A stretch of 61,703 nt of DNA from the IMG/VR virus record IMGVR_UViG_3300028840_003357, positions 1 through 61,703 of that record; one strand, written 5' to 3'. Positions 1-24,038 of the stretch are shown here, piece by piece. Position 1 is the stretch's first letter, and every line of letters starts with the position of its first letter. The notes beneath the pieces are model-generated. The model had not been told where the DNA came from. It did no database searches and saw nothing but the letters and a program-made list of their open reading frames with translations. A program made the translations under genes and the position numbers. Origin of the DNA: a virus (lineage: Duplodnaviria; Caudoviricetes).

Positions 1-2
1 GA

Positions 3-965
3 ACATACGTGACGCCAAGTGATAGCACCTGCGGCATCTGTACATCGTGCAACCTGTGCGTGAACGGGTGCGGCCTATTCCAGAATGACGTTTGTGTGAG
101 CGCAAGCGGTTCATTCTACGGTTGCGGCCACGGCCTTCAGTTCAGCGGGGAGTCATCTGGGTGCTACCTGTGCTTTGACGGGGGCAATTGGGTAGCCGGA
201 AGCCCTCCTGCTACCGTGTGGTGTAACAGTAGCGGGGGTGGGTGTATCGAGCCTGTTGACGGCGGTTGCATAGTGTGGGCCGGGAATGGCATGTGCGCTC
301 AGGGCTGTATCGAGGCAACAGCGTGTCTGATCGCCAGTTCAGAGGTCCACGGAGGAGGCATTTGTGCCTCCTCGTATATGTGCGCTCCCATCTACTGCGG
401 GTGTATGCACACCACCAGCCTGTGCCACGAAAGCGAAAGCGATGGATGCGCACTTGTGTACTGTGGTGCCAGCGGTGGCTGGGTGCCGGGCAGTGCAGGC
501 GGTGCGAGCGTTTGGAGCGATGCCGGTGGGTACATCTGCGTGACCGATATGAATTGCACCATGTGTTTCCAGCACAGTTGCTTCTGCGGGTGCATCCTAT
601 CACAGGACAACTGCTTCTGCTATGATTACTCAACGCAGGCCCTGTGCTTGGGTTGTTTGTATGTCGGAGGCTCCCCTGTAGGCGCATCCCTGTGGGTGGA
701 CAATAACGGATATATCTCGCCGCCTACCGGGTGCGGGATCTGCTGGAATAGTTCCGGTTCTCACTGTGTCGGGGACGGAGGTTCGAAGTTCAACCTTGAT
801 TACAACAGTGACTATCTGTGCTTTGATATGGGGTGTATCTGTACCTCGTCGGGCTGGCAGGGATGGTACATCAACGGAGCCACGGCGTCGGGGTTCTGTA
901 ACTTCACCGACCAGGCAGGGTGCCAGTTCTGTTTCTGCAACGGACTGTTCATCGGTGCCTCATAG
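3..965 (+). CDS. Cys-rich tail fibre-like protein (5' partial)
   Basis: Frame is open from the window edge; ~42 Cys in 318 aa; repeated G-A-S-x-W-x-D-x-x-G-Y-I-like units; lies upstream of the putative lysis genes. Confidence 0.55.
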   Translation, partial: TYVTPSDSTCGICTSCNLCVNGCGLFQNDVCVSASGSFYGCGHGLQFSGESSGCYLCFDGGNWVAGSPPATVWCNSSGGGCIEPVDGGCIVWAGNGMCAQGCIEATACLIASSEVHGGGICASSYMCAPIYCGCMHTTSLCHESESDGCALVYCGASGGWVPGSAGGASVWSDAGGYICVTDMNCTMCFQHSCFCGCILSQDNCFCYDYSTQALCLGCLYVGGSPVGASLWVDNNGYISPPTGCGICWNSSGSHCVGDGGSKFNLDYNSDYLCFDMGCICTSSGWQGWYINGATASGFCNFTDQAGCQFCFCNGLFIGAS

Positions 966-986
966 AAGAGAAAAGTGTGACGGATC

Positions 987-1025
987 CCTAACCAGGGGAG
1001 ACCGTCGAAGTCCTAACCAAGGGAG
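987..1025 (+). promoter_or_regulatory. Tandem CCTAACCA hairpin motifs next to the RBS
   Basis: CCTAACCA at 987 and 1012, each closable as CC-TAACCA(N)-GG; the motif recurs at 51451/51488 and 55883/55906. Confidence 0.5.
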
Positions 1026-1032
1026 AAGGAAG

Positions 1033-5853: not shown

Positions 5854-5857
5854 TTTT

Positions 5858-6778
5858 TCATCCTCCTGTCACTTCGTCGACGATCCTTCTGACCGCCTTT
5901 CTCGTTCTACTCTTGTCCATAACCTCTCTCAGATTCTTCTTGAAACTGAGGCTGATCTCCACCTTCCCCTTGCCAAGCCTGCTGACGAAGGCGTCTATCC
6001 TGTCGTCCCTCCTTTCCTTCGCTTTCAAGTGGTCTCTGGATACGTCCCCTTTGTTCTGAGGGATGTAGACCGTCTCCACCTGATTCTTCTTGGCGTTCCA
6101 GAGATAGACCCGCGGTCTGTGCTTGATCTGGTCCGCCGAAATCCTCATCAACGATCCTGGATTCACCAGAAGCGTTCCGTCTCTTTCTATCTCGAAAGGT
6201 TCGTGGTTGTCCCCTGTCACTATCAGGTCAAAGTTCTGAAGCCTCTTCATCAACCTGTGTCCCGGATCCGCGGTGCATCCCGGAAACGGAACGGACTTTG
6301 CGAAGGTCATCACATGGGCGACTGCTATCTTCCTCGCGAACTGGTTTCGCTTCCTTCCTGCCGCCCGTAGAGAGCTTCCCCACGGAAATCCATAGAGGCC
6401 CAGCCTAGTGCCAAGGTCGTCGAACATCTTTCCTCGGCCATCAGGAAGGCACTGGACGAAGCCTCCCTGGTGGAGTACCGCCAGAGCGGTCTCGTCGAAC
6501 TTGTCTATGTTGTGATGGCGAAGGTCGTGCTGTCCCGGCACCACGAATATCCTTCCACGCGGAAGGTTGGCCATCACCCATCTCTCGAAATCGTGCGAGA
6601 CCTTCCACTTGTCATAGATGTCGCCAGCGATCACCATCGGTGCGAAGTCGTGTTCGGCTTGGAGTTCGTTCAGGAAGTTGAGCGTCTCTTCCTGAGCCGA
6701 AAAGTAATCTCCCACCCATGCCTCTGGCTGATCTTCTCGAAGATGCCAGTCCGCAGATAATATCAGGTCAGCCTTCAC
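5858..6778 (-). CDS. Mre11/SbcD-like metallophosphoesterase nuclease
   Basis: ADWH, AGDIYD, PGQHD, GDNH and NPGSL motifs. Confidence 0.9.
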   Translation of the reverse strand: MKADLILSADWHLREDQPEAWVGDYFSAQEETLNFLNELQAEHDFAPMVIAGDIYDKWKVSHDFERWVMANLPRGRIFVVPGQHDLRHHNIDKFDETALAVLHQGGFVQCLPDGRGKMFDDLGTRLGLYGFPWGSSLRAAGRKRNQFARKIAVAHVMTFAKSVPFPGCTADPGHRLMKRLQNFDLIVTGDNHEPFEIERDGTLLVNPGSLMRISADQIKHRPRVYLWNAKKNQVETVYIPQNKGDVSRDHLKAKERRDDRIDAFVSRLGKGKVEISLSFKKNLREVMDKSRTRKAVRRIVDEVTGG

Positions 6779-6950
6779 GCTTCTTTTCCTCTTTCTTGAG
6801 TTCTTTCTTGACTGTCTCTTCGTAGTTGAGTCTTGCCAGTTCTCTTCCTGTCACCTCATCAGCCTCTATCACCGAAGCTATGTACTCGAGCCTGTCGTCG
6901 ACGACAGGTTTCTGATGCTTCTTTTTCTTCTCTCTTCGCCTCTTACTCAT
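6768..6950 (-). CDS. Small basic hypothetical protein
   Basis: Fills the gap between coupled genes. Confidence 0.5.
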   Translation of the reverse strand: MSKRRREKKKKHQKPVVDDRLEYIASVIEADEVTGRELARLNYEETVKKELKKEEKKREG

Positions 6951-8019
6951 CGACTATCTCCTGTCCGCAAGTGGGACAAATCCTCGTCAGATTCTTTCTT
7001 GCTTCCTTCAGTTCCGCCTTCGCTTTCTTGATCTCTGCCTCGTGGAATCTCATCAGGTCAAGCTTCTCCTGAGCGACATCCGATATGGCCCGGAGCTCGA
7101 TGCTGTCCATCGTCATCTCCTGCCGTTTTTGCCATAGTCTCTCTACGGCCGTACACGGCCGATGTGCCTCCATTAGGGTCTTCCCCTTCCTCATACGAAA
7201 CGAAGCCGATTCGGCCGTACCAAGGATGTCCATGAGCCGATCCTTTCGGCTTTGCGTTTCTTTCTTGCGGTCGGCAAGCCGGCGGATCCGCTGTAGCCTT
7301 TCTTCGGCCGGAAGGATGACGGCGGCCTTCTCCAAGACTGCCTTCGATGCCTTCGCCTTCGCCATGAGATTCTCCAGTTCGAAGGATCGTTCATCGACCT
7401 TGTCAGCTGCCTTCTCAATCAGCTCTATTGCCTTCAGTTTCTTCTCCATCTTTGGAAGATAGTCGAAGGCGGACAGGTCGTCCTTGTGCTCTTCGAGAGC
7501 CGCCTTCTGGCTTCTGAGGTCTTGCGTGTTCTGTCTGACCTTCGCTATCATCCGCGACAGGGCGAGATCTATGATGTCGAGATCGACAGCTTCGTTGAGC
7601 TTGCTAGCCACTTCGCCCGGCGTGTCTGAAAGAAGGAAGGGAGAGTCGAGTTGTCGTTGCCAGTTGACGGGATCCATAGCGATCGCTTCGGCTATGTCTG
7701 CCGGGACTTCGCTCCTGAATGACTTGAACTGCTCGGTCTGGTTACCGCGCATGATCGAGTACAGGTTGACGCTCTTTCCTCGCTTTTCCCGAAGGATAGT
7801 GACGCCGTCGTCCAGTTCGATCTCGACTCTCGTGTCTCCTCCCCAATCGCTTCTGAAATCGTCGCCCGAAGGTCTGTTGTTGCACACCCAATCGAGGGCG
7901 CGGATGATCGCTGTCTTTCCGCAGTCGCTCTGTCCGACTATCACGTTCAGTCCGTCGACGAACTCAACTTCCGTCAGCTTGTGGCTCTGAAAGTTCTCTA
8001 TCTTGAGACGCCTGATCAT
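6943..8019 (-). CDS. Rad50/SbcC-like ATPase, N-terminal half ending at the zinc hook
   Basis: IENFQSH, Walker A GQSDCGKT, Q-loop QRQ, coiled coil, terminal CPTCGQ. Confidence 0.9.
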   Translation of the reverse strand: MIRRLKIENFQSHKLTEVEFVDGLNVIVGQSDCGKTAIIRALDWVCNNRPSGDDFRSDWGGDTRVEIELDDGVTILREKRGKSVNLYSIMRGNQTEQFKSFRSEVPADIAEAIAMDPVNWQRQLDSPFLLSDTPGEVASKLNEAVDLDIIDLALSRMIAKVRQNTQDLRSQKAALEEHKDDLSAFDYLPKMEKKLKAIELIEKAADKVDERSFELENLMAKAKASKAVLEKAAVILPAEERLQRIRRLADRKKETQSRKDRLMDILGTAESASFRMRKGKTLMEAHRPCTAVERLWQKRQEMTMDSIELRAISDVAQEKLDLMRFHEAEIKKAKAELKEARKNLTRICPTCGQEIVDE

Positions 8020-13238: not shown

Positions 13239-13445
13239 TCAGATCCTGTCTTGCGGATCCAGAATTATGTCTGGAATCCTGTGAGCGTTGTTCACGATGT
13301 AGGCTATCAGCTCTGGCCATCGCTGTCTCATATCTTCCTGTTCGTAGCACCAGACCAGATAGGAGTCTGGAACGTCCTCCATCTTCCTGCCTTTGTACTT
13401 TCCGAAAGGCATCTCGTCATTGTGTTCAAGGATCGTTGGCATCAT
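13239..13445 (-). CDS. DUF3820 / exonuclease X C-terminal-like small protein
   Basis: MPFGKYKGRKMEDVPDSYLVW motif. Confidence 0.75.
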   Translation of the reverse strand: MMPTILEHNDEMPFGKYKGRKMEDVPDSYLVWCYEQEDMRQRWPELIAYIVNNAHRIPDIILDPQDRI

Positions 13446-13972
13446 TTTCCTCCATAGCATCTGTGATACATGTCAAGAAACTGGTGCTCGGCCGCTTCTG
13501 GAGTCATCGGCACGATCGGTATCGTCTTGGCGACCTTCACCTTGATGAAAGGTTCTGACATCAACTGTTCTTCCGCCAGACGAACCTTGTCGTTTGCCTT
13601 CCTGACTTCTGGAGGCAGACCGAGATACGGCTCGTCTATCTCAAGAAGTCCAAAGCGCCTGAACACTATGACGTCCACGGGTCTGTTGGCGTGCCTGATC
13701 TCTTCGTACAGGTGATTGTCAACCTGCGAGGCGAGAACGTCTCCGTAATATGCCTTCGGAGCTTCGTGGAGAAGAGCCCACAGACGCATCTCTTTTCCCA
13801 CGAGACCGGCGACGGTCAGACTGTGTTGAGCGACGCTGTAGAACCATCTGCACGCTCCGTTGAAGCAGCAGATATTGCTGAGGTGGTGGGCCACGTCTTT
13901 GATGTCTATGTCCTCCAGCTTCAGCCTGTCAAGGTTGAGTAGTTTCCCGGTGTAGGTTGGCATTGAATCCAT
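13442..13972 (-). CDS. HD-domain (YfbR/DatZ-like) nucleotidase, degenerate motif
   Basis: DIDIKDVAHHLS..C.FNG, YSVAQHS, LLHEAPKAYYGDV (family consensus LLHD..EAY.GD). Confidence 0.75.
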   Translation of the reverse strand: MDSMPTYTGKLLNLDRLKLEDIDIKDVAHHLSNICCFNGACRWFYSVAQHSLTVAGLVGKEMRLWALLHEAPKAYYGDVLASQVDNHLYEEIRHANRPVDVIVFRRFGLLEIDEPYLGLPPEVRKANDKVRLAEEQLMSEPFIKVKVAKTIPIVPMTPEAAEHQFLDMYHRCYGGK

Positions 13973-14865
13973 CAGCAATCCTCCGTGTATCTGTGCATGT
14001 TTCCAACGCTGACGACAACCTCATAGCCGTCGACGTCTACGGCTTCACAAATCATACATGACATGCGACTGAGCACGTCCGTATCCTTCCTGATCATCTC
14101 CACGTCCTGAGATCGCTGGAACACGGAGCAATAGAGCTTGTCTCTTCTGACTTGAAACTGTGCCGAGACGTAGCAGTTCGGAAGCGGTTGTGCTTGACTG
14201 AAAGCGATGACTGCCTGCCTTGACATCGGATCGTCCTTGAGGATCCTCTTGACTCTTTTTATTTCATTCCAGTTGACCTTCAGTTTCTTGAGGACATAAT
14301 CGTTCTCTTCTCTGTCCTGAGGAGAACAGAAGAAATCGTCGTTGAATGTGTATCCATAATTGAGTATCTCCAGAACCTTTCTTCCGTCCGCTAGTTCTCC
14401 CTGTTCGCCTGCGAGGTCGACATACTCTCTTGTCTTCTCCACAAGTTCGCTGGCCGGCGTCACTCTTTCGATGTAGTCTGCGACTTCTTTGTCCTTCGCG
14501 CAGTATCCTATCAGCCGTCTGTAGAAAACGTGGAAGGATTCAAGAGCGTAGTCGCCGATACCTGTCATGTCTTTCAGCAGATCCGCTTCGCCTTGCATGA
14601 TCTTTTTCTTCTGAGACTGAGTCAGGCCGATCCATTCACCGGAGAAGTCTCTTATCATCTTTGCCTTGCGATTCTGGAGGCCGAGGCTTGCGAGAGGTTC
14701 GGCGATCTTCTCTTCATCCGAAGTCCATACCTTCGAGGGATTCCAGAACCGTTTGAAGAAACCTCGCATGACTTCCTTCACTTTCCTTCCGGTCGTACGG
14801 TTCAGCATGATACAGGCGACCATCATCTTCCACGGATCATTCCTGTAGATGTCTTGGACCATCAT
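13972..14865 (-). CDS. Fusion: MBD4-like HhH DNA glycosylase + thymidylate synthase/dNMP hydroxymethylase-like domain
   Basis: N-terminal PWKMMVACIMLNRT, LGL, GIGDYA..S...F and a conserved Asp; C-terminal D.MSRQAVI, LPNC, QF, FQRSQD, GNMHRY. Confidence 0.75.
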   Translation of the reverse strand: MMVQDIYRNDPWKMMVACIMLNRTTGRKVKEVMRGFFKRFWNPSKVWTSDEEKIAEPLASLGLQNRKAKMIRDFSGEWIGLTQSQKKKIMQGEADLLKDMTGIGDYALESFHVFYRRLIGYCAKDKEVADYIERVTPASELVEKTREYVDLAGEQGELADGRKVLEILNYGYTFNDDFFCSPQDREENDYVLKKLKVNWNEIKRVKRILKDDPMSRQAVIAFSQAQPLPNCYVSAQFQVRRDKLYCSVFQRSQDVEMIRKDTDVLSRMSCMICEAVDVDGYEVVVSVGNMHRYTEDC

Positions 14866-15737
14866 GACTGCACCTCTTTCGTCTCATACTGATCCGAACC
14901 GTACATCAATTCGTTGCGAGTCTTATCGTGGAGAGTCCAGTCATTCTCTCCTTCGTCGCTGACCTTGTGATCGTCGTTTCTTTTGTAGATACAGTTCGCC
15001 GTGTATCCTCGCTTCTGATGAAAGCACCTTCCGTCGCCGCAGTGCGACTTGAAATATGAAGTCATCCAGGGGAACTTTTCCGACACGAGAATTTTCATGT
15101 CCTGAACCATGATATTCATCTCCGGATGTTCTTCCTGATCGCATACGCGCTTGGCATATATCGACAGAAGAGTCGGAAGCGTGACGCTCACGTAGCACCA
15201 ACTTGGAATGGTCTTCGGCAGGCAGAACCTGGCGTCGCCGTTGGCTATCTCTCCGGTGTCGAGAAAGTCTGAGTACAGTCTCTTTCCCTCCTGAACCCAG
15301 TTCTCATATCGTTCCAGAAGCTCCGGGAACTTCGTGAAGGCTCTCGGAACGAGGACGTCGCTGTGCCGAAAGTCTTTGACCGCTTGAGACTGCTGCATGT
15401 AGCAGATGCCGATCCTGTTTCTGACAAGCGAATGGGTGCCGTGAAGGCTCAGACCTTCGACGCGAAAGCAGAACTTTGCGTGTTCGAGTCCCTGTCCAAG
15501 CATCCTTCCATTCATCAGTCCATCGATGGTCTCTTCCACATCCTCTTCTGCGGCTTCCATCATGTAATCCTTGTACCACGATGCCTGCGACATGTTGACG
15601 AAGACTCTCTTCAGTCTCTCCGGATCCGGCCAGTCGATGAGTTCGACCTTGACCGCCATCAGGTTGTCGATGAACTTCGTCCTTGGCTTCTGACCTTTCT
15701 TGATTCCAAACATCTGCTTGATTCTTTTCAGGTTCAT
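14862..15737 (-). CDS. thyX: Divergent flavin-dependent thymidylate synthase (ThyX-like)
   Basis: LEH..F.F.VEGLS...H.LVRNR...QQSQ and DARFCLP; the canonical RHR...S.R motif is altered. Confidence 0.7.
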   Translation of the reverse strand: MNLKRIKQMFGIKKGQKPRTKFIDNLMAVKVELIDWPDPERLKRVFVNMSQASWYKDYMMEAAEEDVEETIDGLMNGRMLGQGLEHAKFCFRVEGLSLHGTHSLVRNRIGICYMQQSQAVKDFRHSDVLVPRAFTKFPELLERYENWVQEGKRLYSDFLDTGEIANGDARFCLPKTIPSWCYVSVTLPTLLSIYAKRVCDQEEHPEMNIMVQDMKILVSEKFPWMTSYFKSHCGDGRCFHQKRGYTANCIYKRNDDHKVSDEGENDWTLHDKTRNELMYGSDQYETKEVQS

Positions 15738-15895
15738 GCCTTCTCCACTCCATGCTTATCCACGTGCCGCTTGATCACGTCGCCGCTTTCGAGACGGACG
15801 AGGACTGTGTTGCGATTGACCTTTACCACGAACGCTATCACTCTTCTGGCGTCCACCATCACGCTGACTCTGTCTCCAACTTCCAGCACTTCCAT
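15734..15895 (-). CDS. Small SH3/KOW-like beta protein (53 aa)
   Basis: Translated by hand: MEVLEVGDRVSVMVDARRVIAFVVKVNRNTVLVRL...; coupled at both ends. Confidence 0.6.
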   Translation of the reverse strand: MEVLEVGDRVSVMVDARRVIAFVVKVNRNTVLVRLESGDVIKRHVDKHGVEKA

Positions 15896-17160
15896 CAGCC
15901 TTTCCTCCTCTCTTTTTCTTTCAACAACTTCCTGTATCTGTCCTCGACTATCGAAGACTTCTCGTCGAATAGCCGGAACAGTTCTTCAGGTGTGATTCCC
16001 CACGCTATCATGAGATTCAGGACGTATTTGAAAACATCGACGATCTCCATCTTGACAGCGTGTTCGTCGACGACCTTCGCTTCTCTGTGAATCTTGTAGT
16101 TGACGCCGTCGAGGATCTCTCCGATTTCTGGATACAGATGGAGGATGAAGTTCTTGGTCAGCTGATCCCTGTATTCGTCATCGGCGAGCCTATTGAAATC
16201 ATGGAATCTCCGCGTGAAGTTCATCTGCCTGTTCCACACCATCCTGAAGTCAATGTCGAACTTCGCCTGCCGAACTACATCGCCGATCTTGATCCTGTGG
16301 TCCCAGTTGGCGAACCTTCCTGCGAAGAGGATCCGCTCTGGAGAAACGTTGTTCAGATTCGTCATGATGACGCTTCTGGGATCGATCCAGTAATCGACGA
16401 CGGAATCTGGACCGCCGGGAACAAGCGAAGCCACCACGTCAGGCGGAAGCTGTCCGGGAAATTCGTAGAGGAATGGTCCCTCGCCTCTGTTCCTTGTCAC
16501 CACTCTTGCCTGCTGATACTCGTCGTCGACGAAGTACATCACGCTGAAGGATTCCGGATCGATGTCGTCGATGATCCTGTCGCAAAGTACGAAGGTTGTG
16601 GCGCCGCTGGCCAGCTCGATTTCTGGATCCGGCTTTCGATGATAGAGTTCCCAGAAGATGTCAGCTGGAATCGTCGACACTATCTCGTCGTATGTGTAGC
16701 TTGTCGTGTCGCTGACGATGGCCTTGTCGGTGATGCGAATGACCTCGTCCTTGACGAACGACGCCCCGTCGGATAGTTTCTGTATCAGTTCTTGGAAGTC
16801 TATCTCGAAGGTGTCGATGTAGTAATCGCCTGTGCTGAGGTTGAAGTCTTTCGGCTCGAAGGCAACGTCCATCATCTTCTTTCGGATCAGTGCGAGCTTA
16901 TCCTGTTCCGTTATCTTCTCCATCACCTTGCCGCCTTTGAAATACTTGATCCGTCTGGTGCTCTTCTCATATTCAGTTCCTGTGTCTATCAGGAGGCGCT
17001 CGGTGTCTTCGCAGGCGTGAAGGAAGATCGTGTTTGCCATTCCTTCCCTGGCGAGCTTTCCGCCAACTTCCGGTGAGATGATTTTGAATTCTGGATTGTA
17101 GTACGCCCAGATGAGACCGGATAATCCGCCGCCGATGATGTACTTGCCTTCGTTGCGCAT
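15895..17160 (-). CDS. Fusion: FAD-dependent oxidoreductase (UDP-galactopyranose mutase-like fold) + all-alpha dUTPase/MazG-like domain
   Basis: YIIGGGLSGL, IVSTIP, FAGRFANW; C-terminal EIGEILD...YK.H...EIVDVFKY. Confidence 0.75.
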   Translation of the reverse strand: MRNEGKYIIGGGLSGLIWAYYNPEFKIISPEVGGKLAREGMANTIFLHACEDTERLLIDTGTEYEKSTRRIKYFKGGKVMEKITEQDKLALIRKKMMDVAFEPKDFNLSTGDYYIDTFEIDFQELIQKLSDGASFVKDEVIRITDKAIVSDTTSYTYDEIVSTIPADIFWELYHRKPDPEIELASGATTFVLCDRIIDDIDPESFSVMYFVDDEYQQARVVTRNRGEGPFLYEFPGQLPPDVVASLVPGGPDSVVDYWIDPRSVIMTNLNNVSPERILFAGRFANWDHRIKIGDVVRQAKFDIDFRMVWNRQMNFTRRFHDFNRLADDEYRDQLTKNFILHLYPEIGEILDGVNYKIHREAKVVDEHAVKMEIVDVFKYVLNLMIAWGITPEELFRLFDEKSSIVEDRYRKLLKEKERRKG

Positions 17161-18068
17161 CAGAAGAACTCCTTTCTGGATTTCAGTTGTTCGTGGATGT
17201 TGTTGATCTCAGAGAACCTATCGATGCATTGGTGACTGCAGATGTATGGGAGGCACATCTTGTTCAGCTTCGTGTGTTCGACAGCCTTTTTCCATATCGA
17301 CGACCACGGATCCGAGAAGACGTTTCCGAAAGGTCTGATCAGTGGAGCTATGTCGACATCGTTGTTGGTCAGGCAACACGGAAAGACATCGCCGTCCGAT
17401 CCTATGTACAGCTGATAGAATACCGCGTAACAGTTCCTGAACTTGAAAGGATTCCCCTCTGGATCCGCGCCGTCGCAGGTTCCGTGATACGCACCCTTAC
17501 ACTTGACTTCGATTCCTCTCTCTTCGCACCACGCCTCTATCTTCTCCTGTTCGCCTTCGTTGGCCTTGTGGATCGTCGGTCTGACTCGAACGGTGACTTC
17601 GCCCAGCACCATCTTCTCTATTCCGTCGAGGACCTCGCCGACTGACACGCTATCTCCTCTGACCAACTTGTAGACATCCGGATCGATGGCGTCAAGACTA
17701 CAGCTGACGAACTTGGCTTGCGACAGGAGTCCCAGATCGATAGTCGGCGGCAGATAGCCGCTTGTCACCACGCCGAACGGAAAGTCTTTTTTGATATGCC
17801 AGTCCATGAGGATGTTGAAGTCGGTGTGGCAGAAAGGATCGCCGCCGGTGTAGCAGACCGTCTCGACTGGATCTCGTAGCCAGGTGAGAAAGTTGGTCCA
17901 CTCCACGACCTTCATGATGTTCTTCTTTTTCCTGAGTCTGTGACGGCACATCAGGCAACTGTTGAAACAGTGATCCGTGATGGCAACGTGAAGCGAGACA
18001 GGTGCGCCAAGCCTTCCCGTCTTGACGTAGTTGACATACTGCTTGATCTTGTCTGTTCTGTCCATCAC
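17160..18068 (-). CDS. Radical SAM enzyme with SPASM/twitch domain
   Basis: CFNSCLMC, TGGDP, SLDA, C...F..LYIGSDGDVFPCC, C...C. Confidence 0.9.
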   Translation of the reverse strand: MMDRTDKIKQYVNYVKTGRLGAPVSLHVAITDHCFNSCLMCRHRLRKKKNIMKVVEWTNFLTWLRDPVETVCYTGGDPFCHTDFNILMDWHIKKDFPFGVVTSGYLPPTIDLGLLSQAKFVSCSLDAIDPDVYKLVRGDSVSVGEVLDGIEKMVLGEVTVRVRPTIHKANEGEQEKIEAWCEERGIEVKCKGAYHGTCDGADPEGNPFKFRNCYAVFYQLYIGSDGDVFPCCLTNNDVDIAPLIRPFGNVFSDPWSSIWKKAVEHTKLNKMCLPYICSHQCIDRFSEINNIHEQLKSRKEFF

Positions 18069-18394
18069 TCTCTCCCTGGCTTCTTGATGTTCTCTATCGC
18101 GAAGGCGGCGTAGCAGATGAGATCCTTCAGGGAATCCAGAGCCACTTCCGGATTCTTGATCGTCTCTTCCAAGCCGTCGACAGATAGCTGTAGCCTGAAT
18201 CTCTTCAGCTTGTTCCTCATCTGATAGAACAGGAAGAGAAGTTCGTCCTCTCGATAGGTGTCGCCATACTGGTCTCTTCTATCCGCCCTGACCACCGCCG
18301 CCGAATGGAGAGCCTCAAGGAAGAACACGCCGGTGTTGTCCCTCAGCTTTTCCATCTGCTCCAACCAATGCTTTTTTTCTTCGTCTGTTGTCAT
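18065..18394 (-). CDS. Nucleotide-modification-associated (DUF1599-like, alpha-helical) protein
   Basis: RRDQYGD...KLKR...DSLKDLICYA pattern; GGAGG RBS. Confidence 0.65.
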   Translation of the reverse strand: MTTDEEKKHWLEQMEKLRDNTGVFFLEALHSAAVVRADRRDQYGDTYREDELLFLFYQMRNKLKRFRLQLSVDGLEETIKNPEVALDSLKDLICYAAFAIENIKKPGRE

Positions 18395-18410
18395 GATTTC
18401 CCTCCGTAAC

Positions 18411-18416
18411 ATTATA
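18411..18416 (-). promoter_or_regulatory. TATAAT -10 element
   Basis: Intergenic TATAAT just upstream of the RBS of the first gene in the modification cluster. Confidence 0.4.
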
Positions 18417-18419
18417 TCT

Positions 18420-21400
18420 CTATCCGACGTATTCGAAGAGACAGATTCTCTTTCCGTGTGCCTCTGGTCTGTCGCTGTGGATCGTCCTGACGAACTGCCA
18501 TTTTCTTGTGTTGAAGATCGCACCCCACTGGGGATCCTCTAGCTCGACGTCATTGGCTTCGCACCAGCTTCTTGCTTCAAGGACAGAGACAGGCTCGCCT
18601 GTTCTGAAAAAGAGATCTTTCATTGCGTTCCTGATCCTGGCGAACTTTTCCTTCGTCGATGTGCCGCCTTTCCTTTCGACGCTCTTGAGGATCCGGTTCC
18701 TGATCTCCAATCCGCGCTGCCTTCCGGCTTCTCCTCTCTCCTTCTTGTCCGCCTTTCCTTCCACACGGCTTCGAGGCGTTCCGAGGTCGGCTCCCACGGC
18801 TTCCAATGTCCGCGCAAAGTTCTTCAAGCCGGATATGAGTGGACGCCGATTCTCAGCCGAATGGAGAGCCGAAGCCGGATGGACGCAATAGCATATCCAG
18901 GCGTTATGGATCGGGCTCCATTCCGTAGTCGCGTTCAGCGACATGATGCCGGACTTCTGTCCGCTGATCCACTGGAGAGGAGTGTTGCCAAGGACGAGGA
19001 TGACCACAGGTTTGATCTCTTCCACCTCCTTGTCGAGCCACCTTTCTGAACAGGTTCTCATCTGCTTCGTCGTCGGCGCCTTCCCCTTCCCAGGAAAACA
19101 CTTCGCGACGTTGGTGACGTGGATGAGATCGCGAGTGATCCCCTGCTTTCCAAGAATCTGCCACGCCAACTTTCCTGACGCACCTATGAACGGAGTCCCC
19201 TCCGCGTCTTCATCCTTCCCTGGTGCTTCGCCGACGGCCATCACATTCCATAGTCCCGGATCCGCCGGAACAGGGCCGCGACATATCTTGGAGAGCTCAC
19301 AGCTTTCGCAATTGTCAAGGCTGACGAGGCACTCTGGATCCGCCGCCTGCTTGGAGACGCCTATCAGATCGACGTCCATGTCGAAGATGTCCGCCGACTT
19401 CAGTTGATCGTCGAACCATATCTTCTGGCAGAACACGTTCTTGATCCTCTGCTTGCCGCCGACGTTGATTCCTTTTCCTCTGGTGGATTCGATGACAACG
19501 TTCTTGCCTTTGCAGTGTTCGATCTCATCTTTCCTCTGCTTGTAAAGGTCGCCATCGAAGGTGATCATCTCCGCGGCCGAATCGTCTCTGATGTATCCGT
19601 AGACGCCTCCGAGCGATGAGGATCCAGCGCGTCTGGCGGAGTGGCTTTGGACTCCTTTCTTGTAGCTGTACTTCATCTCGTCGATCTTCCCAAACATCAA
19701 TGCGGTCTTGTCCACATATCCTCCTGTCAGGATGTCGTCTATCGAGTAGAGATACGGATCGAGGAGGTTCAGGATTCCTCTGATGTCGCGAAGGGGATCC
19801 TGTGACATGTCGAAGGCGAGAAGGTCTGCTATCTCCTCCACTTCATCGTCGGTGAAGGACAGCTTCTCATCGTCGAAGGCATGGACTCTTTGGAGAACCT
19901 TGACGATGTTCGACGGCAGGTTCTTGTCGACTTCCTTCTCGGCGAAGAACCCCTCCTGAGCGACTCCTTCCCTCAGCTTCCTGATCTTCTCACACGCCTT
20001 CGGCCCTATGCCTTTGATCTCCAGAAGAGGCATCAACAAGTCTGTTCCTTTCGCCACCCACGACTCCGGTTCTGAAGTCTTGACCTTCGGCGGAACGATC
20101 TTCAGCTTCAGGCGTCTGGCTTCCTTGATGAGCTCGTCCTTGAGATCATCCTTGGCATGCGTCAGAGTCGCGGCCATGAATTCCGCCGGATAGTACACCT
20201 TCAGCCACATGTCCCAGTAGGTGATCATGGAATACTCGACCGAATGAGATTTGTTGAAGCCGTACGACCCGAAGCTGGATAGTTCGTCCCATACCTCGCC
20301 GGCGGCCGATGGATCCAGAGTGCCTTTCTTGCTACAGCCTTCGACGAACATCGTCTTGTACTTCGCGAAGAGACTATCGCCTTGACTCTTGCTGACGACC
20401 TTGCGGATCAGGTCGCAATTCTTCCAAGTCATTCCTGCCAAGTCGTACGCCAACATCATAATCTGTTCCTGATAGAGAATGATGCCGTGCGTGTCTTCGG
20501 TCAGGTCTTTCATGCTCGGATGGATGTGTTCCCATTCGCTCTCGCCATTCTTCCTCGCCCTGAATTCTTCCGCCGTTCCTGCTCTCAAGGTGCCTGGTCG
20601 CCACAGGGCAGTGGCATCCACGATGTCGGAGAACTTTTGGATGCCGAGCGCTTCGCAGAACCTTCTGAGCCCCGGCGAAGACAACTGAAAGGCACCGACC
20701 GTGTGTCCCATTGAGACTTCGGCGAGGACATCAGGATCGTCGAGCGTCAGGCTTTCATAGTCGACGTCGACTCCGTGGTTCTTCTTGATCATGTCCTTGG
20801 CATCGGACAGGACGCTCAAGGCAGACAGGCCAAGCACGTCAAGCTTCATCATCCCGAAGTACTCGACGTCGTGCTTGTCCCAGTTTGCGACGACGACATC
20901 CTTTCCTCTGACCGCAAGAGAACAGCGCCTTCCTTCCAGAAGGCTCTCTTCAGACACGCATATCCCTGCCGCGTGTTGTCCCGCTCCTCTGACCTGTCCC
21001 TCTATCCTCATCGCGAAGTCTGCGACGTGGGGATATTTCTTCTTGAACCGCTTTCCATCTTCGAAGGTCTCGAAGGCATCCTCTATCGTGTAGTCAGCGC
21101 GATCGTCTCCCATGGACCTGACGACGATGGCCTTCGCCGCCTTGTCTATGTCGATGTATGGAAGGTCGAAGACTCTGCCGATGTCTCTGATCGCCGCCTT
21201 TCCTTTCAAGGTCGAGAAGGTGGAGACTCCAGCGACGCAATCCTTCCCGTACATGTCTTCGAGATGCTTCCTGACGAGGTGCCTCTTCCTGTCTTCAAAA
21301 TCCATGTCTATGTCCGGAAGGTCGATGCGCGCAGGCGATATGAATCTGGAAAAGACAAGACCGTGCACCAGCGGATCCACTCCTGTGATCCTCATCAGAT

Positions 21401-22556
21401 AAGCGACAAGACTTCCGCCGACGCTTCCTCTTCCTGGACCTGTCATCACGTCGTTATGTCGGCACCAGTTTATGAGCTCCCAGACGATCAGGAAGTATCT
21501 CTGGAAACCGAGATTGCAGATGATCTCCATCTCTTCCTCTATCCTGTCGTCGTACATCTTCTCCGTCACTTCCCTGTCCTTGTAATCCAGCTTCGGAGTC
21601 TTTCCCTCGATCAGTTCCTCCCAGCCGTCCTCTATGACGGACCACATCGCCTCCGTGTCGTCGTCCGATTTCACTCCCTGAACGCGAGGCAGAGAGACTT
21701 CCCTGCCCGGAAGCTCCGGGAATCCTTCGTAGCATTCTTCAGCTATCTCCACGGTCAGGTCAAGAGCTTCGTCGACGCTGGCGATCAGTTCCTTGGATCC
21801 GCCCTGTTCGATGAAGGCGTCCATCATCTCTTCTCTGGATCTGAGGTGAAGACCTGTCACACTGAACCGCCATCGGTTTGGGTCTTTCCACTTCGCCTGC
21901 CGTTGTATGGCCAAGAGGACCTCCTGAAGTTCCGCGTCTTTTTCCAGCGGATAGTGGCAGTCGTTCGTCGCCACGACGCCAATCCTCCCACCGAATTCAT
22001 CCGCGAAGTCAAGAGTCATCTCGTTCACGACCAGCTGATCTTCAAAGTCGTGCGGCATTATCTCGCCAAGCACTCTATCGTCGCCGACTTCCTGAACGAG
22101 ATTCTTCATGAATTCGAGTCCCCACTTCTCCTTCAGGATCGTGGAGGTACAAGCTGTCATCCAGAACAGACCGTCGCAGTGTTCGAAGATCATGTCCGGA
22201 TCCACCCTCGGCCGGCGATAGAATCCGTCGAGGTTCGCCTTCGTTGTCAGCTGTAACAGATTCTGCCAGCCTTTCGGATGGGCGACCAGAACAGTGACGT
22301 GAAGTCTCTTCTCCCCCTTCTCCTTGACAGACGCATCCTTGACGACGTACAGTTCGCTTCCGAAGACCGGCTTGATGTCGCCGGCTTGACATGCCTTCTG
22401 GAACTTCAGGCATCCGTCCACGTTTCCGTGGTCCGTGATGGCCAAGTACTCCATCCCAAGATCGTTGGCCCTCTCGACATACTGCTCGGCGGATCCGAGG
22501 CCATCGAGAAGGCTGTACTGATGATGGACGTGCAGGTGACAGAAGTCTTTACTCAT
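18420..22556 (-). CDS. dnaE: DNA polymerase III alpha subunit fused to a family-4 uracil-DNA glycosylase domain
   Basis: PHP HLHVH..YSLLDG, ITDHG, GRGS.GGS, PDIDMDF, GFNKSHS; C-terminal CESC, GEAPG, PFIG.SG, NVAKC, HPA. Confidence 0.95.
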   Translation of the reverse strand: MSKDFCHLHVHHQYSLLDGLGSAEQYVERANDLGMEYLAITDHGNVDGCLKFQKACQAGDIKPVFGSELYVVKDASVKEKGEKRLHVTVLVAHPKGWQNLLQLTTKANLDGFYRRPRVDPDMIFEHCDGLFWMTACTSTILKEKWGLEFMKNLVQEVGDDRVLGEIMPHDFEDQLVVNEMTLDFADEFGGRIGVVATNDCHYPLEKDAELQEVLLAIQRQAKWKDPNRWRFSVTGLHLRSREEMMDAFIEQGGSKELIASVDEALDLTVEIAEECYEGFPELPGREVSLPRVQGVKSDDDTEAMWSVIEDGWEELIEGKTPKLDYKDREVTEKMYDDRIEEEMEIICNLGFQRYFLIVWELINWCRHNDVMTGPGRGSVGGSLVAYLMRITGVDPLVHGLVFSRFISPARIDLPDIDMDFEDRKRHLVRKHLEDMYGKDCVAGVSTFSTLKGKAAIRDIGRVFDLPYIDIDKAAKAIVVRSMGDDRADYTIEDAFETFEDGKRFKKKYPHVADFAMRIEGQVRGAGQHAAGICVSEESLLEGRRCSLAVRGKDVVVANWDKHDVEYFGMMKLDVLGLSALSVLSDAKDMIKKNHGVDVDYESLTLDDPDVLAEVSMGHTVGAFQLSSPGLRRFCEALGIQKFSDIVDATALWRPGTLRAGTAEEFRARKNGESEWEHIHPSMKDLTEDTHGIILYQEQIMMLAYDLAGMTWKNCDLIRKVVSKSQGDSLFAKYKTMFVEGCSKKGTLDPSAAGEVWDELSSFGSYGFNKSHSVEYSMITYWDMWLKVYYPAEFMAATLTHAKDDLKDELIKEARRLKLKIVPPKVKTSEPESWVAKGTDLLMPLLEIKGIGPKACEKIRKLREGVAQEGFFAEKEVDKNLPSNIVKVLQRVHAFDDEKLSFTDDEVEEIADLLAFDMSQDPLRDIRGILNLLDPYLYSIDDILTGGYVDKTALMFGKIDEMKYSYKKGVQSHSARRAGSSSLGGVYGYIRDDSAAEMITFDGDLYKQRKDEIEHCKGKNVVIESTRGKGINVGGKQRIKNVFCQKIWFDDQLKSADIFDMDVDLIGVSKQAADPECLVSLDNCESCELSKICRGPVPADPGLWNVMAVGEAPGKDEDAEGTPFIGASGKLAWQILGKQGITRDLIHVTNVAKCFPGKGKAPTTKQMRTCSERWLDKEVEEIKPVVILVLGNTPLQWISGQKSGIMSLNATTEWSPIHNAWICYCVHPASALHSAENRRPLISGLKNFARTLEAVGADLGTPRSRVEGKADKKERGEAGRQRGLEIRNRILKSVERKGGTSTKEKFARIRNAMKDLFFRTGEPVSVLEARSWCEANDVELEDPQWGAIFNTRKWQFVRTIHSDRPEAHGKRICLFEYVG

Positions 22557-23403
22557 TCCAAAGCCTCCCCAGTCTCTTCTTGATTTCATCTTCACCGATC
22601 GCCGAAGTCTTATCGCCGGCGAAGGTTCTCTCTTTGTCGTAACCGAACGCCCAGACATCCTTGGCGTACATCTCTTCAACCATGTCAGCTGTCTCTTCAT
22701 CGTACAGCTCTTCCATCGGCGGCTTTTCCTTGACGTAGTGCATCCGCTGATGGATCGTCAGGTCGTGATCGAATCCTATCATGTCGCACATCGCATCCCA
22801 GTCCCAGAGAAGGTTCTCGAACCTTCCGATGAATGAAAGGTCGGGGTGGGTCCACCTCCACTGCTGATCTGGAATCCTGTAGCGTGGCGAATTCACGTCC
22901 AGAGAAGAGACGATCTTCTCGACGTGTAGCTTCCTGACGAAGTCTTTGAAAGTCTTACAGCCTTTCAGCTGTGTGTGTTGGGACGTGTTGCCGAAGACGA
23001 ACCAGACGGACATCATCCGCGTCCACGGATTCCTGACGAAGCAGAAAGAGAGCACGCCGTCGAAGAACTCCTGCGGACACAGCCCCTCATTCATGATGAC
23101 ATTCAGGGGCATGTGGTTGTAGCAGACGTGGAAGCGATTCAGATCCGGGCGTTCGCCGCGCCGCAGGTGTTCGAACTCCGCGATCCTGCTCAGCCGTCCG
23201 ATCCTGATGTAGTTGATGACGTTCCGCTTGAAGACAAAGTGCATTGACTCAGAAGCGGTCCTCGGAACCTTCAGAAAGATGAACGGCTTCACCTTCTGAC
23301 CCGAGGACCCCATCTGCCTGTTTCTATCCTCGCAGTCGGCCAGGGTTTCCACGATGCTGTGGTCACTCCTGGCCGACCTTGAGCGCTTGGACTTGGCCGC
23401 CAT
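22549..23403 (-). CDS. Sulfotransferase (Sulfotransfer_2-like)
   Basis: FIFLKVPRTASES (5'-PSB), FVRNPWTR..S (3'-PB), FIGRFENL, Y..D...FGY. Confidence 0.8.
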   Translation of the reverse strand: MAAKSKRSRSARSDHSIVETLADCEDRNRQMGSSGQKVKPFIFLKVPRTASESMHFVFKRNVINYIRIGRLSRIAEFEHLRRGERPDLNRFHVCYNHMPLNVIMNEGLCPQEFFDGVLSFCFVRNPWTRMMSVWFVFGNTSQHTQLKGCKTFKDFVRKLHVEKIVSSLDVNSPRYRIPDQQWRWTHPDLSFIGRFENLLWDWDAMCDMIGFDHDLTIHQRMHYVKEKPPMEELYDEETADMVEEMYAKDVWAFGYDKERTFAGDKTSAIGEDEIKKRLGRLWNE

Positions 23404-24038
23404 TACACGACGACCTTGATGTATCCGTTCCTGGCGTGGTGATAGACAGCTGAACGTGCGCCACCCTTCTTGATGTAGGTCGCGATCTTCATGCCATCCT
23501 TCATCAGCTTGAAGCGGTCGTACGCCTTCGTCCCCTTCCTGTGAGGATTCTCGTCCACCAGGAACTTGATGACGCCTTCATCGGGACAGCTGATCTTCTT
23601 GCCGTTCTTTTTCTTCGCCGCAGGTTTCTTCGCCGCGGGTTTCTTCGCCGGAGGTTTCTTGGCAGCAGGCTTCTCTTTGGCCGGCGCCTTCTTGGTCGCG
23701 GGTTTCTTTCCGTTACCGTTCTTCGCCTTCGCAGGCGCCGCCTTTTTCTTTGCCGCTGCTTTCTTCGTCACTTTCTTTTCCTCCGGTTCGTCCTCATCTG
23801 CACTGCCGGCCTGGATCTCCACGCCGAGCTGTTCCAAGACATCGAAGGTGTCCTGTTCGAGCTCATCCTGCTCGAAGAATCCACCGTCATCTGCCTTGCC
23901 TTCCTCCAGGATCGCCTCGATGATTTCATCTTCCGATCCCTTGGTCGGTAGTGGCGTGTCCAGATCCAGAACCTTGTTGATGTCCTTCACCGCCGCGACC
24001 AACCTTTTCTTCTCTACCGCTACTGCTTTCTTCGCCAT
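23403..24038 (-). CDS. Protein with histone H1-like KKPAA repeats (putative DNA-binding)
   Basis: Acidic N-domain, repeated KKPA(A/P)/KKAA units, C-terminal NP.RKGTKAY.RF domain. Confidence 0.65.
   Translation of the reverse strand: MAKKAVAVEKKRLVAAVKDINKVLDLDTPLPTKGSEDEIIEAILEEGKADDGGFFEQDELEQDTFDVLEQLGVEIQAGSADEDEPEEKKVTKKAAAKKKAAPAKAKNGNGKKPATKKAPAKEKPAAKKPPAKKPAAKKPAAKKKNGKKISCPDEGVIKFLVDENPHRKGTKAYDRFKLMKDGMKIATYIKKGGARSAVYHHARNGYIKVVV

What the first reader, a model, noticed from the sequence alone, without database searches (positions are those of the whole stretch)
13442..23403. Candidate new DNA base-modification pathway around the polymerase
Seen, contiguous and mostly coupled on the - strand: sulfotransferase, DnaE-UDG, DUF1599-like protein, radical SAM/SPASM, FAD-oxidoreductase+dUTPase-fold fusion, small SH3-like protein, divergent ThyX, glycosylase+TS fusion, HD hydrolase. 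Established: phage hypermodification loci combine TS-family enzymes that make a modified dNMP, pyrophosphatases that remove the canonical dNTP, and tailoring radical SAM or flavin enzymes. No 5-hmU DNA kinase, amino-acid:DNA transferase, PurZ or 7-deazaguanine genes were recognised, so this does not match those known routes. Inference: an undescribed modified pyrimidine, possibly cytosine-based.
Basis: partly seen in the sequence, partly recalled or inferred. Interest (0 to 1): 0.85.

Follow-up and report, generated by a model that had tools for sequence, protein, structure and literature searches.

The report
Candidate phage pyrimidine-modification gene module
Next to its DNA polymerase, an uncultivated phage carries a rare but recurring set of nucleotide enzymes, including a miniature thymidylate-synthase relative built to act on cytosine, which probably makes an unusual DNA base that nobody has yet measured.

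Summary
Seven labels hold, the SH3-like one is borderline, and 'DUF1599-like' finds no profile match.

Only part of the cluster is a conserved unit. Its core is a UDP-galactopyranose-mutase-like flavoprotein fused to a MazG-like NTP pyrophosphatase, a divergent ThyX, and a miniature ThyA-fold enzyme, fused here to an MBD4-type glycosylase. All four occur together in 13 of 41 distinct loci, usually beside a replicative polymerase. They are almost absent from 72 control phage loci. No cultured phage has the flavoprotein fusion or a clear rSAM relative.

The mini-TS keeps the catalytic Cys. It has Asp at the E. coli N177 position in 14 of 14 members, the published mark of dCMP specificity. Its nearest solved fold is the flavin-dependent dCMP 5-hydroxylase of phage HY126.

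The ThyX-like clade lacks a conserved dUMP-binding Arg, and two lineages also carry a second ThyX. The rSAM/SPASM gene recurs in a sister clade. The HD, sulfotransferase and 53-aa genes have no relative in any fetched locus.

Best reading (about 0.5): T-even-style pre-replicative modification of cytosine, product unknown. No data show modified DNA, and GGCC/GCGC avoidance argues against full replacement.

The parts
13442..13978 (-). HD-type dNMP 5'-phosphatase-like protein (178 aa). Accessory, not conserved with the module.
   Evidence: phrog_318 E 8.1e-34. No Pfam hit. No blastp relative in fetched loci.
14461..14865 (-). MBD4-type HhH-GPD mismatch glycosylase domain (residues 1 to about 135 of the 297-aa fusion).
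   Evidence: PF00730 30.7 bits. MBD4 E 1.1e-10. VIA Z 18.5, rmsd 2.0-2.3, 128-132 residues aligned.
13972..14460 (-). Miniature ThyA-fold domain (residues about 136-297). It has Cys in 'LPNC', 'QRSQD', and Asp261 at the E. coli N177 position. It ends just after 'GNMHRY'.
   Evidence: PF00303 38 bits. Alignments. AF2 pLDDT 88.3. Best fold match 9iqu, the HY126 dCMP hydroxylase, Z 15.8.
14862..15737 (-). Divergent ThyX paralogue (291 aa). It reads RNR instead of RHR, the Arg of the S-x-R motif is Ala, and it has a C-terminal Cys/His extension.
   Evidence: PF02511 86.5 bits. TIGR02170 below its cut-off. Alignments.
15734..15895 (-). 53-aa ProQ_C-like small protein. Accessory.
   Evidence: PF17516 23.5 bits against a cut-off of 23.3. 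Small ORFs at the same place in L091, L093 and L094 align poorly, 13-27% identity.
16246..17160 (-). UGM-like / amine-oxidase-fold flavoprotein domain (residues 1-305) with a GxGxxG motif.
   Evidence: Atlas structure neighbours. Family profile against PDB: UDP-galactopyranose mutase, E 1.1e-7. 2127 cluster representatives.
15895..16201 (-). MazG-like all-alpha NTP pyrophosphatase domain (residues about 320-421) with ExxE...ExxD seen by eye.
   Evidence: dUTPase_2 20.6 bits, below its cut-off. Weak MazG-like PDB hits, E 0.11-0.14. Fused instead to an NT5C-like domain in L096/L098.
17160..18068 (-). Radical SAM/SPASM enzyme (about 301 aa), CxxxCxxC present. Recurrent accessory.
   Evidence: PF04055 42.3 and PF13186 36 bits. 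Relatives in 13 viral loci beside ThyX and DnaE.
18065..18400 (-). The ORF runs to 18523, and the real start is probably internal.
   Evidence: Conserved in 6 loci. No PF07659 match. No PDB match.
18420..22556 (-). DnaE-type polymerase fused to a family-4 UDG domain (UDG at about 18846-19247). The ORF runs to 22700. The probable start at Met49 is inferred.
   Evidence: Pfam. The same fusion occurs in L107/L108, L111 and L114. No cultured-phage match covers 80% or more of it.
22549..23403 (-). Carbohydrate-type sulfotransferase (284 aa). No evidence that it belongs to the module.
   Evidence: PF03567 41 bits. phrog_3347 E 5.1e-21. No relative in fetched loci.

Best explanation
The region is the early nucleotide-metabolism and replication operon of an uncultivated DnaE-type phage. 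Its conserved core most likely makes a C5-modified deoxycytidylate before replication, in the manner of T-even phages.

Proposed steps:
1. The MazG-like domain hydrolyses a pyrimidine dNTP (dCTP and/or dUTP) to the monophosphate. Inferred.
2. The mini-TS binds dCMP through its Asp and attacks C6 with its Cys. The residues are shown; the activity is inferred.
3. It installs a methyl, hydroxymethyl or hydroxyl group. The product is unknown. The window's residues read Leu at position 143 and Asp at 169, a methyl-like pattern. The nearest fold is a flavin-dependent dCMP 5-hydroxylase.
4. Kinases make the triphosphate and the adjacent DnaE polymerase incorporates it. Inferred.
5. The fused MBD4-type glycosylase and the polymerase-fused UDG remove deamination products paired with G. 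Inferred.

The ThyX-like enzyme either supplies dTMP or makes a second altered uracil nucleotide. The UGM-like flavoprotein has no assigned step. rSAM/SPASM is a recurrent optional tailoring enzyme. HD, sulfotransferase and the 53-aa protein are lineage-specific.
For: Co-occurrence:
- All four core parts occur in 13 of 41 distinct loci.
- Of 19 FAD-seeded loci, MazG is in 16, ThyX in 13 and mini-TS in 9.
- Of 12 rSAM-seeded loci, the FAD-like gene is in 11, ThyX in 12 and DnaE in 9.
- Of 72 control loci, the FAD-like gene is in 0, MazG in 3, ThyX in 1, mini-TS in 1, rSAM in 0 and DnaE in 0.

Mini-TS:
- A Cys in the active-site motif and Asp at N177 in 14 of 14 members; Arg166 in 13 of 14.
- The rule that N177D means dCMP was read in PMC13326640, sections 24 and 28.
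- Member L123 has the full published 5-hydroxy-dCMP-synthase pattern, E/N/D.
- Fold: 9iqu Z 15.8 and 9iqc Z 15.3, against 14.6 or less for canonical TS.
- The C-terminal end falls about where RB69 gp48 ends.

ThyX-like:
- The Arg aligned with the S-x-R Arg of solved ThyX is absent in 12 of 12 clade members.
- Arg-90 of T. maritima ThyX is named as a conserved dUMP contact in a passage of PMC3498832. That it is the same Arg rests on my recall of the motif.
- L002 and L121 carry two ThyX genes.

Other:
- Nucleotide-degrading partners recur beside the clade: HD, NT5C fusion, deoxyribosyltransferase-like.
- No cultured phage has the flavoprotein fusion, and the rSAM finds only one weak partial hit.
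Against: - No measurement of the DNA exists.
- GGCC (170 observed, 304 expected) and GCGC (155 observed, 258 expected) are strongly avoided. That is unexpected if every C were C5-modified.
- No dNMP kinase was found in the window (E<=1).
- The TMPK-like kinase seen in related loci is also common in controls: 16 of 41 against 19 of 72.
- The window's mini-TS lacks the D169N and L143E marks of known 5-hydroxy-dCMP synthases.
- The mini-TS also lacks the folate-binding C-terminal tail that a methylase would need.
- hhalign against RB69 gp48 gives only 55.6% probability.
- The Z margin over ordinary TS is about 1.
- Many loci are cut by contig ends, and each set was seeded by one of the families counted.
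Confidence: 0.5

Rival explanations
1. Ordinary pool maintenance and repair. The MazG-like domain is a dUTPase. The ThyX-like enzyme is the phage's only thymidylate synthase. The glycosylases repair uracil and mismatches. The mini-TS is a degenerate or regulatory dCMP-binding domain. The virion DNA is canonical.
For: - A dUTPase-ThyX-DUF1599 block in Asgard viruses was read as plain dTMP supply (passage of bioRxiv 10.1101/2021.07.29.453957).
- The window has only this one ThyX and no other ThyA.
- ThyX-like keeps the Arg170 and Arg197 columns.
- Palindrome avoidance.
- No dNMP kinase in the window.
Against: - Catalytic residues of the mini-TS are conserved across 14 divergent members, always with Asp at N177.
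- Two lineages carry a second ThyX beside the divergent one. The L002 copy has the intact RHR and S-x-R motifs.
- The S-x-R Arg is lost in 12 of 12 clade members.
- The UGM-like partner is present in 37 of 41 loci and is not explained by this reading.
Confidence: 0.27
2. Thymine is the replaced base rather than, or as well as, cytosine. The ThyX-like enzyme traps the exocyclic-methylene intermediate with water or an amine to give a 5-substituted dUMP. MazG plus the HD or NT5C enzymes destroy dTTP and dTMP. rSAM and the flavoprotein tailor the product.
For: - Altered dUMP-site motif.
- MazG-NT5C fusion and HD YfbR-like deoxynucleotidase beside ThyX-like genes.
- The rSAM clade has FAD-like and ThyX genes but no mini-TS: 0 of 12 loci.
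- rSAM and flavin enzymes tailor thymidine modifications in known phages (PMC8989533 passages).
Against: - No 5-hmU DNA kinase or amino-acid:DNA transferase name among the 49 ORFs scanned.
- No ThyX-family hydroxymethylase turned up in the search listing.
- The window would then have no thymidylate synthase of its own.
Confidence: 0.13
3. The UGM-like flavoprotein, the sulfotransferase and the GT9-like ORF serve sugar chemistry. The target is either glycosylation of a hydroxylated base or host surface glycans unrelated to DNA.
For: - The FAD-like family's best sequence relative is UGM, E 1.1e-7.
- Phage RL38J1, which has glycosylated 5-hydroxycytosine, encodes a UGM (PMC13326640 passages).
- An epimerase/dehydratase sits inside the cassette in L004, and that cluster recurs in 9 loci.
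- The sulfotransferase family is carbohydrate-type.
Against: - The family is about 300 aa and matches only part of UGM.
- It is fused to a nucleotide pyrophosphatase.
- The GT9-like ORF is weak (E 0.0013; Atlas score 0.89) and absent from 5 of 5 related records.
- The sulfotransferase has no relative in any fetched locus.
Confidence: 0.1

Closest known systems
T-even pre-replicative cytosine replacement (T4 dCTPase gp56, dCMP hydroxymethylase gp42, dNMP kinase gp1). The gene roles are recalled.
   Same: An NTP pyrophosphatase, a ThyA-fold enzyme with Asp at the N177 position and a separate thymidylate synthase all sit beside the replicative polymerase.
   Different: The TS-fold enzyme is about 165 aa and has Leu, not an acidic residue, at position 143. 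The thymidylate synthase is a divergent ThyX. A UGM-like flavoprotein is fused to the pyrophosphatase. No kinase was found in the window.
Flavin-dependent 5-hydroxy-dCMP synthases (RB69 gp48, DLP3 gp80, HY126 AfhB; PMC13326640)
   Same: Nearest solved fold. Asp at N177, an 'RSQ' motif and a short C-terminus. The cluster lies next to the polymerase. A UGM accompanies the pathway in RL38J1.
   Different: The window keeps Asp at position 169 and Leu at 143, where those enzymes have Asn and Glu. Only related members L123 and L127 have Asn. No flavin binding was tested.
Xp12-type dCMP methylation giving 5-methylcytosine DNA (recalled; Xp12 5mC is mentioned in the abstract listing of PMC7653180)
   Same: Asp at N177 with a hydrophobic residue at 143. 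An MBD4-type T:G glycosylase would suit repair of deaminated 5mC.
   Different: The folate-binding C-terminal tail is absent. No sequence comparison with an Xp12 enzyme was run.
Thymidine hypermodification clusters (5-HMUDK, amino-acid:DNA transferase, rSAM isomerase, flavin lyase; PMC8989533)
   Same: An rSAM enzyme and a flavoprotein sit near a TS-family enzyme and the polymerase. An HhH glycosylase-fold protein is present.
   Different: No kinase or transferase was recognised. The glycosylase domain is MBD4-like. The flavoprotein is UGM-like, not MnmC-like.
dUTPase-ThyX-DUF1599 block of Asgard wyrdviruses (bioRxiv 10.1101/2021.07.29.453957)
   Same: A pyrophosphatase, a ThyX and a small helical protein lie in one block.
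   Different: Here the small protein does not match PF07659, the ThyX is divergent, and a mini-TS and a flavoprotein are added.

Membership tests
ThyX / flavin-dependent thymidylate synthase | Pfam PF02511 above the gathering score | tested here: met
   86.5 bits against 24.8.
ThyX / flavin-dependent thymidylate synthase | NCBIfam equivalog TIGR02170 cut-off | tested here: not met
   52.1 bits against 87.9.
ThyX / flavin-dependent thymidylate synthase | RHR...S-x-R motif. [quoted passage not shown] | tested here: not met
   The window reads RNR, Ser is kept, and the S-x-R Arg is Ala. That Arg is absent in 12 of 12 clade members. The motif passage was read.
ThyA / thymidylate synthase | Pfam PF00303 score and catalytic Cys | tested here: met
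   38 bits against 24.3, covering only profile 107-213. Cys aligned in 'LPNC'.
ThyA / thymidylate synthase | Asn at E. coli position 177 (dUMP specificity) and full-length fold with the C-terminal tail | tested here: not met
   Asp261. The protein ends after 'GNMHRY'. NCBIfam TS equivalogs score 31 bits or less against cut-offs of 108 or more.
5-hydroxy-dCMP synthase (RB69 gp48 type) | N177D | tested here: met
5-hydroxy-dCMP synthase (RB69 gp48 type) | D169N diagnostic residue and L143E | tested here: not met
   The window has Asp and Leu. L123 has Glu/Asn, and L127 has Asn at 169 with Ala at 143. The rule was read.
5-hydroxy-dCMP synthase (RB69 gp48 type) | Flavin cofactor and O2-dependent hydroxylation | not testable with these tools
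   Fold likeness only: 9iqu Z 15.8, rmsd 2.5, 159 residues aligned.
MBD4-type HhH-GPD glycosylase | Family score and fold | tested here: met
   PF00730 30.7 bits against 26.2. MBD4 E 1.1e-10. Z 18.5.
MBD4-type HhH-GPD glycosylase | Catalytic Asp | tested here: inconclusive
   Asp125 is invariant in 7 of 7 members and lies within the aligned range 1..142. No residue-level alignment to the MBD4 catalytic Asp was obtained. Its position is recalled.
Radical SAM / SPASM | Both Pfam domains and the CxxxCxxC motif | tested here: met
   42.3 and 36 bits. C33, C37 and C40 are invariant. No NCBIfam equivalog was reached: best 59.4 bits against 400.
UDP-galactopyranose mutase | Sequence and fold relation over the whole enzyme | tested here: inconclusive
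   The profile hits UGM at E 1.1e-7 over profile 123-204 only, plus the GRFxxW motif. Pfam names 2 of 61 members, one Amino_oxidase and one NAD_binding_8. My AF2 model was poor, pLDDT 57.5.
MazG / dUTPase_2 all-alpha NTP pyrophosphatase | Family score | tested here: inconclusive
   20.6 bits against a cut-off of 22.9. PDB MazG-like hits at E 0.11-0.14. The acidic motifs were seen by eye.
DUF1599 (PF07659) | Profile match | tested here: not met
   No match in the window at E<=10.
Thymidine hypermodification (5-HMUDK + AADT) | Presence of the kinase and the transferase | tested here: not met
   No such Pfam name among 49 ORFs. The right arm was not scanned.

The most novel reading that the evidence does not exclude
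The ThyX-like enzyme and its UGM-like partner, both from families that work through covalent flavin-N5 adducts, may form a new flavin-based route to a modified pyrimidine nucleotide. It would run alongside the dCMP-specific mini-TS, so these phages would alter both pyrimidines. rSAM/SPASM, methyltransferase, SDR and sulfotransferase genes would then be interchangeable tailoring steps. The flavoprotein family has 2127 cluster representatives, so this would be a large unrecognised branch of phage DNA chemistry.
Probability: 0.2. Interest if true: 0.9.

Novelty: new variant of a known kind. Interest (0 to 1): 0.72.

Why it matters
If the module makes a modified base, four things follow.
- The T-even strategy of modifying the nucleotide pool would extend to DnaE-type phages known only from metagenomes.
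- It would add a miniature TS-fold enzyme and a fusion of 'writer' and mismatch glycosylase.
- It would give a first functional context to a nameless phage flavoprotein family with 2127 cluster representatives.
- It would offer new enzymes for DNA labelling and explain resistance of such phages to restriction.

It also marks a ThyX clade whose substrate site differs from every characterised ThyX.

Tried and rejected
- Complex prediction of the FAD-like domain with ThyX-like gave no verdict: score 0.21 against a mark of 0.32.
- The AF2 model of the FAD-MazG fusion was poor, pLDDT 57.5. Its Foldseek list is only a lead.
- Single-protein scans of viral contigs with the FAD-MazG and Gly-TS proteins found nothing. 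Alignments were needed.
- megablast of the region against phage records: no match.
- tblastn of FAD-MazG and of family member P0024 against cultured phages: no match.
- The rSAM gave only one weak QueE-like hit.
- The genome-contig scan with ThyX-like found none.
- A10 was too diverse to scan with.
- The DUF1599-like profile found nothing in PDB.
- The GT9-like ORF found no PDB hit and was absent from 5 related records.
- I considered the TMPK-like kinase as a module part. I dropped it as specific evidence because controls hold it too: 19 of 72.
- I considered a frameshifted TS C-terminus in the HD gene and rejected it. All 7 family members end at the same place, and the HD ORF matches its PHROG along its whole length.
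- Ulmer et al. 2008 could not be read.
- Supplements of the papers were not seen.


Full report
**What the window is.** The window is an IMG/VR virus record of 61,703 bases, estimated 88% complete. The left 41 kb is transcribed mainly on the - strand (skew). It encodes a replication and recombination set:
- FEN-type 5'-3' exonuclease, RecA/UvsX-like, gp32-like and UvsY-like proteins, and SbcCD-like pieces
- primase, SNF2 helicase and an AAA+ ATPase

I did not annotate the right arm.

**The observation.** All nine ORFs exist at the stated coordinates on the - strand, with overlaps of 1-7 nt.

Labels confirmed:
- the HD protein (phrog_318, E 8.1e-34; no Pfam hit)
- the HhH-GPD + thymidylate-synthase fusion
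- ThyX
- radical SAM/SPASM
- DnaE + family-4 UDG
- the sulfotransferase

Labels that are softer:
- The 53-aa protein is a borderline ProQ_C match, 23.5 bits against 23.3.
- The dUTPase_2 match of the 421-aa fusion is just under its cut-off, 20.6 bits against 22.9.
- 'DUF1599-like' is not confirmed.

**The glycosylase-TS fusion.**
- The N-terminal 135 residues resemble the MBD4 glycosylase domain: E 1.1e-10; Z 18.5, rmsd 2.0-2.3, 128-132 residues aligned.
- An AlphaFold model built from 7 family members is confident: pLDDT 88.3, pTM 0.83.
- The C-terminal part (136-297) has a compact TS fold.
- Alignments to solved TS chains place Cys in 'LPNC' on the catalytic Cys, 'QRSQD' on R166-S167-x-D169, and 'GNMHRY' on the H207/Y209 motif. 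Asp261 falls on E. coli Asn177.
- A 2026 paper (PMC13326640; I read the abstract and sections 24 and 28) gives these rules. N177D marks dCMP as substrate. An acidic residue at L143 goes with hydroxymethylation. D169N marks flavin- and O2-dependent 5-hydroxy-dCMP synthases.
- The window therefore reads dCMP-specific, with Leu at 143 and Asp at 169.
- In a second look at Foldseek's matches, the best chains for the TS part are the phage HY126 dCMP hydroxylase (9iqu, Z 15.8, rmsd 2.5, 159 aligned; 9iqc, Z 15.3). Ordinary TS chains reach at most Z 14.6, a margin of about 1.
- hhalign against RB69 gp48 is weak (55.6% probability, E 1.2e-4, 80 columns). It shows a shared 'RSQ' motif and a similar C-terminal end.

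**The mini-TS family.** I aligned 14 mini-TS sequences: the 7 fused proteins of alignment A1 (the window's own and 6 relatives) and 7 stand-alone ones.
- The N177 column is Asp in 14 of 14.
- A Cys lies in the motif in 14 of 14, shifted by two columns in two of them.
- Arg166 is present in 13 of 14.
- The D169 column is Asp in 9, Glu in 3 and Asn in 2.
- L123 shows the full published E/N/D pattern.

**ThyX-like.**
- It passes Pfam but not the NCBIfam equivalog cut-off.
- Against M. tuberculosis and C. glutamicum ThyX it reads RNR for RHR, and Ala for the Arg of S-x-R.
- That Arg is missing in 12 of 12 clade members.
[quoted passage not shown] That Arg-90 is the S-x-R Arg, and the 'extended ThyX motif' of Ulmer et al., rest on my recall; that paper could not be opened.
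- Clade members are 60-67% identical to the window over seven sequences. The mini-TS partners are 35-44% identical.
- L002 holds a canonical ThyX (128.6 bits, with RHR and S-x-R intact) beside the divergent one.
- L121 also holds two ThyX genes. I did not inspect the motifs of its second copy.
- The window has only the divergent copy and no other ThyA.

**The flavoprotein-MazG fusion.**
- Neither Pfam nor PHROGs names the first 305 residues.
- The ESM Atlas model has amine-oxidase and protoporphyrinogen-oxidase-like neighbours, plus viral clusters of about 300 aa.
- An exhaustive profile search found 2127 cluster representatives at E<=1e-3, 1291 at E<=1e-10 and 490 at E<=1e-30. Most are 300-320 aa.
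- Ten of ten that I looked up are unnamed or 'hypothetical'.
- A 61-member profile hits UDP-galactopyranose mutases at E 1.1e-7, over the 'YFP...FYRAT' region and the GRFxxW motif.
- Pfam names only 2 of the 61 members.
- The C-terminal domain shows the acidic MazG motifs by eye and has weak MazG-like PDB hits.
- In L096 and L098 the same MazG-like domain is fused to an NT5C-like deoxynucleotidase instead.

**Neighbourhoods.** I seeded searches with four families: Gly-TS, ThyX-like, rSAM and FAD-like.

I dropped 13 loci as repeats or near-copies, judged by contig name and identical hit statistics: L003, L005, L086-L088, L090, L095, L098, L108, L115-L117 and L125. That left 41 distinct loci, the window included.

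HMM and BLAST counts:

| Set | n | FAD-like | MazG | ThyX | mini-TS | rSAM | kinase | DnaE |
|---|---|---|---|---|---|---|---|---|
| rSAM-seeded | 12 | 11 | 0 | 12 | 0 | 12 (seed) | 0 | 9 |
| FAD-seeded | 19 | 19 (seed) | 16 | 13 | 9 | 3 | 14 | 7 |
| ThyX-like-seeded | 7 | 4 | 5 | 7 (seed) | 4 | 0 | 2 | 1 |
| Controls (stand-alone MBD4-like glycosylase) | 72 | 0 | 3 | 1 | 1 | 0 | 19 | 0 |

- All four core parts occur together in 13 of 41 loci.
- The FAD-like and ThyX ORFs lie within 300 nt of each other in 20 of the 31 loci that have both.
- Absences are soft, because many loci end at contig edges.
- The protein of about 340 aa that precedes ThyX in the rSAM clade is homologous to the FAD-like domain (hhalign 98.1%, E 1e-13).
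- In that clade the genes between ThyX and rSAM include a HAD phosphatase, an SDR and an FkbM methyltransferase, and a glyoxalase-fold protein follows rSAM.
- The closest relative, L114, keeps DnaE-UDG, the small helical protein, FAD-MazG, ThyX-like, a stand-alone mini-TS, UvsY, gp32, RecA and FEN. It lacks rSAM, HD and the glycosylase domain.
- HD, the sulfotransferase and the 53-aa protein have no blastp relative in any fetched locus.

**Distribution.**
- No cultured phage record matches FAD-MazG, and the rSAM finds only one weak partial hit, E 6e-4.
- ThyX-like is at best 27% identical (best-ranked hit) to a cultured-phage ThyX.
- Two MAG contigs titled Patescibacteria and Saccharimonadales carry FAD-MazG, ThyX-like and mini-TS.

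**Literature.** My searches turned up no paper on this fusion, on a ThyX-family hydroxymethylase in phages, or on a UGM-ThyX link. I saw mostly listings. The library omits many subscription papers, and supplements were closed.

**Against the modification reading.**
- No chemistry has been measured.
- GGCC (170 against 304 expected) and GCGC (155 against 258 expected) are strongly under-represented, as are 8 of 16 four-base palindromes at z<-3 by a rough Markov estimate.
- The window has no recognisable dNMP kinase.
- The TMPK-like kinase common in related loci is also common in controls.
- The window's mini-TS does not carry the published hydroxylase or hydroxymethylase marks.

**Verdict.** The real unit is a four-part core plus optional tailoring genes. 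It is most likely a T-even-style cytosine pathway of unknown product (about 0.5). An ordinary dTMP-and-repair reading stands at about 0.27.

Noticed in passing
L006-L077 (72 viral loci): A stand-alone MBD4-like glycosylase of about 135 aa is widespread in phage contigs, including records of over 400 kb. 19 of the 72 loci have a TMPK-like P-loop kinase within 10 kb.
   Followed up: partly
window 766-1947 (+): 393-aa ORF with a weak Glyco_transf_9 hit (E 0.0013). It also resembles viral clusters of which 26% of members carry that family (Atlas score 0.89). It is absent from 5 of 5 related records.
   Followed up: partly
L137, L138: Two MAG contigs titled Patescibacteria and Saccharimonadales carry FAD-MazG, ThyX-like and mini-TS. 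This is either a host clue or a binning artefact.
   Followed up: partly
L096, L098, L097: Distant ThyX-like genes (28-30% identity) sit with an Fpg/Nei glycosylase, a MazG-NT5C fusion, nucleoside 2-deoxyribosyltransferase-like proteins and an HD YfbR-like deoxynucleotidase.
   Followed up: partly
window 14862-15737, residues about 231-257: The ThyX-like clade has a C-terminal extension with conserved Cys238 and His257 and further Cys/His residues. The ThyX of the rSAM clade has a different Cys-rich tail. A metal site is possible.
   Followed up: no
window 23403-24038 (-): 211-aa low-complexity basic protein with weak histone H1-like matches (NF038053, E 8.9e-6), directly upstream of the sulfotransferase.
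   Followed up: no
window 4271-8019 (-): The SbcC/Rad50-like ATPase appears as two ORFs: the N-terminal half at 6943-8019 and the C-terminal SMC_N piece at 4271-5077. A Metallophos SbcD-like gene lies between them at 5858-6778.
   Followed up: no
window, whole: GGCC, GCGC, TGCA, CTAG and CATG are strongly under-represented, while GGATCC is over-represented (75 against 51 expected).
   Followed up: partly
L126 8334-8927; L128 7907-8491: Stand-alone family-4 UDG-like ORFs lie right after ThyX or MazG in two loci. UDG may therefore be another recurrent partner of the module.
   Followed up: no
window 13239-13460 (-): 73-aa ORF with QSregVF_b (E 1.9e-9) and ExoX-like_C matches, lying between the UvsY-like gene and the HD gene.
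   Followed up: no
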